The notes under the pieces are model-generated. The model was given only the letters and a program-made list of their open reading frames with translations. It did not search any database and had not been told where the DNA came from. A stretch of 64,000 nucleotides of DNA from contig NW_026889830.1 of the NCBI RefSeq assembly GCF_033153115.1, positions 2,790,001 through 2,854,000 on the forward strand, written 5' to 3'. The stretch's first letter is position 1; each line of letters begins with the position of its first letter. Positions 972 to 1,008 of the stretch are shown here, one piece after another. A program made the translations under genes and the position numbers. Source of the stretch: Saccostrea echinata (lineage: Eukaryota).

Positions 972-1008
972 GGCCGTTTTCACGGCCACCCAAATTTTTA
1001 GAAAAGAT
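972..1008 (+). promoter_or_regulatory. H4 3' stem-loop GGCCGTTTTCACGGCC (972-987) plus histone downstream element GAAAAGAT (1001-1008); repeated in each unit
   Basis: 6-bp stem and 4-nt loop flanked by CAAAC and ACCCA, with a purine-rich element 13 nt downstream. Confidence 0.95.

What the first reader, a model, noticed from the sequence alone, without database searches (positions are those of the whole stretch)
972..987. Non-consensus histone stem-loop GGCCGTTTTCACGGCC in H4, H2A and H3; three stem-loop types in one unit
Established: the metazoan SLBP-bound stem is GGYYYU-loop-ARRRCC. Seen: H4 (972), H2A (4610) and H3 (10425) have the fifth pair flipped to G-C, a compensatory double transversion. 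H2B keeps canonical GGCCCTTTTCAGGGCC and H1 has an A-U first pair (AGCCCTTTTCAGGGCT). All three types are fixed in all units. Inference: either a lineage-specific SLBP/3'hExo tolerance or paralog, or subtype-specific tuning of processing, storage or decay. H2A and its partner H2B differ from each other.
Basis: partly seen in the sequence, partly recalled or inferred. Interest (0 to 1): 0.7.

Follow-up and report, generated by a model that had tools for sequence, protein, structure and literature searches.

The report
Oyster histone hairpin with flipped pair
Three of the five histone genes in this oyster gene cluster end in the standard histone-mRNA hairpin with one base pair flipped; the flip is old and recurs in other animals, so it is likely tolerated by the oyster's one ordinary hairpin-binding protein, and a virus-like element in the same genome carries the same flipped hairpin behind a non-histone gene.

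Summary
All 28 histone stem-loops in this 11.1-kb quintet array pass Rfam RF00032: H4, H2A and H3 (17 copies) have G5-C12, H2B (6) is canonical, H1 (5) has A1-U16. The units are nearly identical, so 'fixed in all units' is one observation. Stronger evidence: four diverged cluster types in the genome keep the same gene-by-gene pattern, and Crassostrea-type contigs share the variant. Unrelated organisms also carry G5-C12, some with a different type on H1 than on core genes. The genome shows one SLBP gene with no oyster-specific change in its RNA-binding motifs, and the base known to be read directly (stem G2) is unchanged. Best reading: an old, structure-preserving substitution at a shape-read position. 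Subtype tuning is not excluded; a paralog is not supported. Binding and 3' ends were not tested; U7 was not found. Side result: Maverick/Polinton-like elements here end non-histone genes in stem-loop plus HDE. The scan noted one such family before (e1-8580448); a second family uses this very variant.

The parts
623..64000 (.). Tandem array of about 5.7 histone quintet units (H4+, H2B-, H2A+, H1+, H3+), period about 11.12 kb
623..934 (+). H4 coding sequence, unit 1
972..987 (+). H4 stem-loop, G5-C12 variant (also at 12121, 23238, 34357, 45476, 56593)
1001..1011 (+). H4 purine-rich downstream element (HDE-like), GAAAAGATGCC
3552..3923 (-). H2B coding sequence, unit 1
3504..3519 (-). H2B stem-loop, canonical C5-G12 (also starting at 14604, 25723, 36842, 47959, 59078)
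3480..3490 (-). H2B HDE-like element, GAAAAGATATC
4198..4578 (+). H2A coding sequence, unit 1
4610..4625 (+). H2A stem-loop, G5-C12 variant (also at 15695, 26814, 37933, 49050, 60169)
4640..4650 (+). H2A HDE-like element
7859..8462 (+). H1 gene of unit 1, frameshifted copy (intact 198-aa copies at 18965, 30084, 41203, 52320)
8505..8520 (+). H1 stem-loop, A1-U16 bottom pair with canonical fifth pair (also at 19604, 30723, 41842, 52959)
8534..8544 (+). H1 HDE-like element, GAAAAGATACC
9996..10393 (+). H3 gene of unit 1, broken copy with a stop after codon 27 (intact copies at 21100, 32219, 43338, 54455)
10425..10440 (+). H3 stem-loop, G5-C12 variant (also at 21542, 32661, 43780, 54897)
10454..10464 (+). 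H3 HDE-like element

Best explanation
These are replication-dependent histone 3'-end signals of an oyster in which the fifth stem pair reads G-C instead of C-G in H4, H2A and H3; the flip keeps the hairpin shape and is likely read by the single ordinary SLBP as a tolerated, near-neutral variant. Shown: same 6-bp stem and 4-nt loop, unchanged stem G2-C15, U6-A11, loop U1 and U3 and flanks, a downstream element at fixed spacing, one SLBP gene, and retention of the pattern across four cluster types and a second oyster genus. Inferred: SLBP binds all three hairpins, U7 snRNP pairs with the shared downstream element, and CPSF73 cuts 4-5 nt behind the stem. Also inferred: the flip arose once in an oyster ancestor, spread among three 3' modules by gene conversion, and stays gene-specific because any return needs a double change through an unpaired state.
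For: Structure kept: predicted -10.6 kcal/mol for the variant, -11.4 for H2B, -9.2 for H1, same fold; 126 of 126 cells paired in 21 hand-picked 3' ends, pair 5 seen as GC 13, CG 6, AU 2 while pairs 2, 3 and 6 never vary. All 28 pass Rfam. The only base-specific SLBP hydrogen bonds are to stem G2 (G7-Arg181; PMC10388802 passages). A 2,281-species survey names pair 2 and loop U3 as diagnostic and finds on average 14 of 16 positions matching the reference (bioRxiv 2026.10.14.759114, Results part 2 of 3), so two differences is typical. One SLBP gene; motifs RRQK, YGKNT, YDRY, HP-TPNK, SRRSWD and LW-ALH-WDPP match human SLBP; the two departures (KAID, KCSRR) are shared with Pinctada. G5-C12 stands behind a histone gene in 14 non-oyster metagenome loci, and in 6 of them core genes on the same contig carry A5-U12 while H1 carries G5-C12. 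Maverick-like elements carry either type behind non-histone genes, which fits interchangeable signals.
Against: No binding or 3'-end data: no raw RNA reads were offered. U7 snRNA was not found. No gene changed type across four cluster types differing at up to 45% of four-fold sites, nor in Crassostrea-type H3, H4 and H2A; structure-only selection predicts this, but so does gene-specific selection. The pyrimidine preference at position 5 in the general consensus (recalled) suggests the pair is not fully free for every SLBP. The primary mutagenesis papers were not held, so tolerance of this exact pair is not documented here. The stem-loop type of Pinctada was not checked, so its shared SLBP changes could still be enabling.
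Confidence: 0.72

Rival explanations
1. Gene-specific tuning: the three hairpins differ in affinity for SLBP, 3'hExo or decay factors, and selection keeps each type on its gene to balance histone output (H2B and H1 against H2A, H3, H4).
For: Zero type switches in four cluster types and in Crassostrea-type contigs; H2B canonical in three further runs; H1 differs from the core genes in other organisms too.
Against: The split separates H2A from its partner H2B, which are needed in equal amounts. The H1-specific change is a different one in other organisms (G5-C12 there, A1-U16 here). Predicted stabilities differ by only 0.8 kcal/mol between variant and canonical. Persistence is expected from pairing alone.
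Confidence: 0.2
2. An oyster-specific SLBP paralog or an altered RNA-binding domain reads the variant.
For: The oyster domain differs from human SLBP at a few positions near the RNA-binding motifs (KAID, KCSRR).
Against: Pfam PF15247 gives two matches, both exons of one gene; a full-length search gives seven matches, all in that gene. The differing residues are shared with Pinctada. The search tool warns that counts are lower bounds.
Confidence: 0.06
3. Assembly or collapse artefact, or a feature of dead copies only.
For: Unit 1 holds broken H1 and H3 copies, and the units are nearly identical.
Against: 325 copies on several contigs, four diverged cluster types with full-length histone matches, and independent metagenome contigs.
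Confidence: 0.01

Closest known systems
Metazoan replication-dependent histone mRNA 3' end: Rfam RF00032 Histone3 stem-loop plus HDE, read by SLBP (PF15247; PDB 4L8R/4QOZ), U7 snRNP, CPSF73 and 3'hExo
   Same: 6-bp stem, 4-nt U-rich loop, G2-C15, U6-A11, A-rich 5' flank, AC-led 3' flank, 31-42 nt after the stop of intronless histone genes, purine-rich element 13-14 nt downstream; passes the gathering score.
   Different: Purine at stem position 5 (G5-C12) in three core genes and A1-U16 in H1, against the usual GGYYYU/ARRRCC consensus (recalled); the pattern is fixed per gene.
Histone clusters of unnamed organisms in metagenome contigs (L105, L108, L113, L118, L123, L142)
   Same: Purine at stem position 5, and a different hairpin type on H1 than on core genes of the same contig.
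   Different: There H1 has G5-C12 and the core genes A5-U12, with a U4-A13 pair and another downstream element; their H1 is only 50-69% identical to the oyster H1 globular domain.
Maverick/Polinton elements (pPolB, rve integrase, A32 ATPase, terminal inverted repeats)
   Same: Both element families here have pPolB, integrase, an A32-like ATPase and inverted repeats around 20-23 kb.
   Different: They end a RING gene (family A) or a small acidic ORF (family B) in a histone stem-loop plus HDE; I found no paper describing this.

Membership tests
Histone 3' stem-loop RF00032 | Score at or above Rfam gathering threshold | tested here: met
   28 of 28 window hairpins, 36.2-40.7 bits against 34
Histone 3' stem-loop RF00032 | 6-bp stem, 4-nt loop as the favoured fold | tested here: met
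Histone 3' stem-loop RF00032 | G2-C15 pair, U6-A11 pair, loop U1 and U3 | tested here: met
   invariant in all 21 aligned 3' ends
Histone 3' stem-loop RF00032 | Pyrimidines at stem positions 3-5 (textbook consensus, recalled; a preference, not a threshold) | tested here: not met
   G at position 5 in H4, H2A, H3
U7-dependent histone pre-mRNA | Purine-rich HDE at fixed distance behind the stem | tested here: met
   GAAAAGAT 13-14 nt behind the stem in 5 of 5 genes
U7-dependent histone pre-mRNA | U7 snRNA complementary to the HDE | tested here: inconclusive
   no RF00066 match over cut-off; one pattern gave 0; another gave 25 matches, of which 13 of the 15 fetched were LINE coding sequence and 2 showed no U7-like hairpin
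U7-dependent histone pre-mRNA | SLBP with intact RNA-binding domain in the genome | tested here: met
   one gene, motifs aligned to human and fly SLBP
U7-dependent histone pre-mRNA | mRNA ends 4-5 nt behind the stem without poly(A); SLBP binds it | not testable with these tools
   only assembled contigs were offered
Maverick/Polinton (side result) | Protein-primed polymerase B and retroviral-type integrase | tested here: met
   PF03175 and PF00665 above cut-off in both families
Maverick/Polinton (side result) | Terminal inverted repeats around 15-25 kb | tested here: met
   165-166 bp (family B, two copies, about 20 kb) and 436 bp (family A, one copy, 22.8 kb)
Maverick/Polinton (side result) | Packaging ATPase, capsid proteins, protease | tested here: inconclusive
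   Pox_A32 above cut-off in family A, below it in family B; the 476-aa and 169-aa ORFs that I read as capsid and protease (recalled resemblance) had no supporting Pfam match

The most novel reading that the evidence does not exclude
Virus-like Maverick elements of oysters took up the histone mRNA 3'-end signal twice, one family the canonical hairpin and another the oyster G5-C12 variant, and make non-histone mRNAs that are cut by SLBP/U7 and tied to S phase; the flipped pair then marks capture from an oyster H3, H4 or H2A gene and shows the variant works outside a histone gene.
Probability: 0.5. Interest if true: 0.75.

Novelty: new variant of a known kind. Interest (0 to 1): 0.4.

Why it matters
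Taken alone, the flipped pair is a natural test of shape-based reading by SLBP and a warning that consensus patterns demanding pyrimidines at stem positions 3-5 miss three of the four oyster core histone ends. It gives a ready three-hairpin binding test. The wider point is the side result: replication-dependent histone mRNAs are described as the only cellular mRNAs ending in this signal (PMC4604434 passages), yet two families of virus-like elements here carry it behind non-histone genes, one of them with this variant.

Tried and rejected
U7 snRNA: not found. Rfam best hit 27.4 bits, under the cut-off of 34; pattern hits were mostly a LINE. This says nothing about absence. Viral collection: exact variant 0; two looser scans gave 33 loci, most inside ORFs, and I saw none with an oyster-type HDE or a histone-like setting; no relative of the putative capsid gene. 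The small acidic ORF has no Pfam family and one unnamed homolog; the Atlas could not be queried. The unnamed H1 carriers could not be assigned to a taxon. HDE type (GATGCC or GATACC) does not follow hairpin type across clusters, so a second U7 is not needed. Strand does not explain the pattern, since H1 lies on the strand of the variant genes yet keeps C5-G12. RNA runs were contigs only and cannot show ends; the H2A, H3, H4 and H1 hairpins were not read in those runs. Run X22 covered the hairpin only with unlike upstream sequence and was left out. 59 of 76 metagenome matches had no histone gene and are mostly chance. Paper searches: exact variant and H1-type strings 0 papers; canonical and other strings 4 listings, none on molluscs by title; searches gave no description of the variant or of Maverick stem-loops in listings.

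Full report
What the window is. It holds about 5.7 copies of an 11.12-kb histone quintet, H4+, H2B-, H2A+, H1+, H3+. The organism is an ostreid oyster: its SLBP exon is 98% identical to a protein named Saccostrea echinata SLBP, 95% to Ostrea and 90% to Crassostrea virginica. Units 2-6 differ by 0-2 substitutions; unit 1 differs by 13-14 from units 2-5 and holds a frameshifted H1 and an H3 with an early stop.

The observation. All five hairpins are as described: 17 G5-C12 copies (6 H4, 6 H2A, 5 H3), 6 canonical H2B and 5 A1-U16 H1 copies. These are the 28 RF00032 matches, all above the gathering score. Each is 31-42 nt behind the stop and 13-14 nt before GAAAAGAT. The predicted fold is the same for all three types, at -10.6, -11.4 and -9.2 kcal/mol.

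Age of the pattern. The exact variant occurs 325 times in the genome against 0 for the reversed control; only the first 100 places were listed. I fetched the clusters among them. Four cluster types (C81, C12, C54, C11/C29) all show H4, H2A, H3 = G5-C12, H2B = C5-G12, H1 = A1-U16. Loop positions 2 and 4 vary, and the C54 H1 has a U4-G13 wobble. The C29 type differs from the window's at 42-45% of four-fold sites in H3 and H4, as deep as or deeper than the distance to Crassostrea-type contigs (24-42%). Three metagenome contigs carry the same stem behind H3, H4 and H2A (L075, L084, L096); that H2A is identical to Crassostrea gigas/angulata H2A. In three of four runs laid (X2, X6, X7), contigs reaching into the H2B coding end show no difference in the H2B stem; these are contigs, and their organisms are coded. 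So the pattern likely predates the split of these oyster genera.

Range beyond oysters. A metagenome scan that required G5-C12 gave 76 loci; 17 have a histone gene, with the hairpin behind its stop. Three are oyster-like. The other 14 include three copies of one H3 locus, one H4, one divergent intron-bearing H3 and nine H1 genes; in six of the H1 loci, core genes on the same contig carry A5-U12. The scan forced G5, so it gives occurrence, not frequency, and I could not name the taxa. Against my reading, the L078 hairpin and the A5-U12 hairpins of L105 and L108 did not reach the Rfam gathering score. In 21 hand-picked 3' ends pair 5 takes three forms while pairs 2, 3 and 6 are invariant; relatedness inflates the covariation score, so I use only the pair types.

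The reader protein. One SLBP gene was found by family (2 matches, both exons) and by full-length protein (7 matches, one gene). Its RNA-binding domain aligns to human and fly SLBP with the main motifs intact. Two departures, KAID and KCSRR, are shared by all six oyster sequences and by Pinctada, so they are not oyster-specific. [quoted passage not shown] The survey bioRxiv 2026.10.14.759114 (outline, Results part 2 of 3 and passages) reports 14 of 16 positions matching the reference on average and has no occurrence of 'mollus'; I did not see its supplements. PMC7026596 (passages) describes SLBP-aided U7 binding and cleavage 4-5 nt behind the stem. PMC6210712, PMC5011920 and PMC5429643 (passages) gave no usable sequences. 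The primary structure and mutagenesis papers were not held, so tolerance of this exact pair is inferred.

Mechanism. The variant most likely works as an ordinary histone 3' end. A compensatory double change can arise by hairpin-templated correction (general knowledge, not tested), and the near-identical hairpin-to-HDE stretches of H4, H2A and H3 fit spread by gene conversion. Once fixed, each type is held by pairing alone. This explains persistence without gene-specific function but does not exclude it. U7 was not found, and no RNA ends could be read.

Side result. Some variant copies lie outside histone clusters. They follow a small acidic ORF of about 50-80 codons a few hundred bases inside the terminal repeat of Maverick-like elements (family B: pPolB, integrase, 165-166-bp repeats). 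Of 21 genome matches to this ORF, 10 have a fully paired G5-C12 hairpin, 3 a G5-U12 wobble, 3 a damaged one and 5 none (two truncated remnants, one degenerate); an HDE-like motif follows in all 16. Five of five family-B loci tested pass Rfam. Many copies carry stops or frameshifts. Family A ends a RING gene in 1-6 canonical hairpins with HDE: 61 of 70 loci examined (32 of 33 close, 29 of 37 distant ones at 42-71% identity), out of 150 listed matches. The first hairpin is mostly about 26 nt behind the stop, and distant subfamilies show a compensatory U3-A14 form. In L030 only one of four tandem hairpins passes Rfam. The scan had noted family A on other DNA of this genome (e1-8580448), which I saw after my own test; that note is not independent support. 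Five look-ups showed no note on family B. Paper searches and passages showed no description in print; the library lacks most subscription journals. Expression and processing of these element genes are untested.

Verdict. A real, old, recurrent variant of a known element, likely tolerated (0.72). The finding as written is of modest interest; its link to a second element family that uses the variant raises it to 0.4.

Noticed in passing
G000 C36:4322171-4322408, C6:12399592-12399824, C33:28018338-28018578 and others (L011-L018, L047-L067): Maverick-like family B: small acidic ORF of no known family near the terminal repeat, ending in the G5-C12 hairpin plus HDE in 16 of 21 matches (3 of them damaged).
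   Followed up: yes
G000 C1:19372753-19372996 and many others (L029-L036, L209-L278): Maverick-like family A: RING gene ending in 1-6 tandem canonical hairpins plus HDE, kept in distant subfamilies; noted earlier by the scan.
   Followed up: yes
window 7859-8462 and 9996-10393; L019, L020: The first unit and the stretch before it hold broken or truncated H1, H3, H2B and H4 copies, as at a decaying array edge.
   Followed up: partly
L081:189-1554, L087:6-1930, L112:890-1887: Metagenome contigs with a long ORF (recombinase-like by my reading, C-terminal Myb domain) followed 25-49 nt later by a histone-like hairpin and a purine-rich motif like that of the L105/L142 histones; the two tested are below the Rfam gathering score.
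   Followed up: partly
L037:3281 and L038:2646-2679: Lone histone-like hairpins with HDE, one a tandem pair, in stretches where no long ORF precedes them; not searched for histone genes.
   Followed up: no
L193:8151-8741 and L030:5825-7248: Family A elements carry a BIR-RING (IAP-like) gene and a pair of similar genes, one with a weak viral Rep match.
   Followed up: no
L115:779 and L115:1381: Two divergently oriented short ORFs, each followed by a G5-C12 histone-like hairpin, with no histone match.
   Followed up: no
window 126-304: A direct repeat of about 120 nt upstream of H4, also present in the next unit.
   Followed up: no
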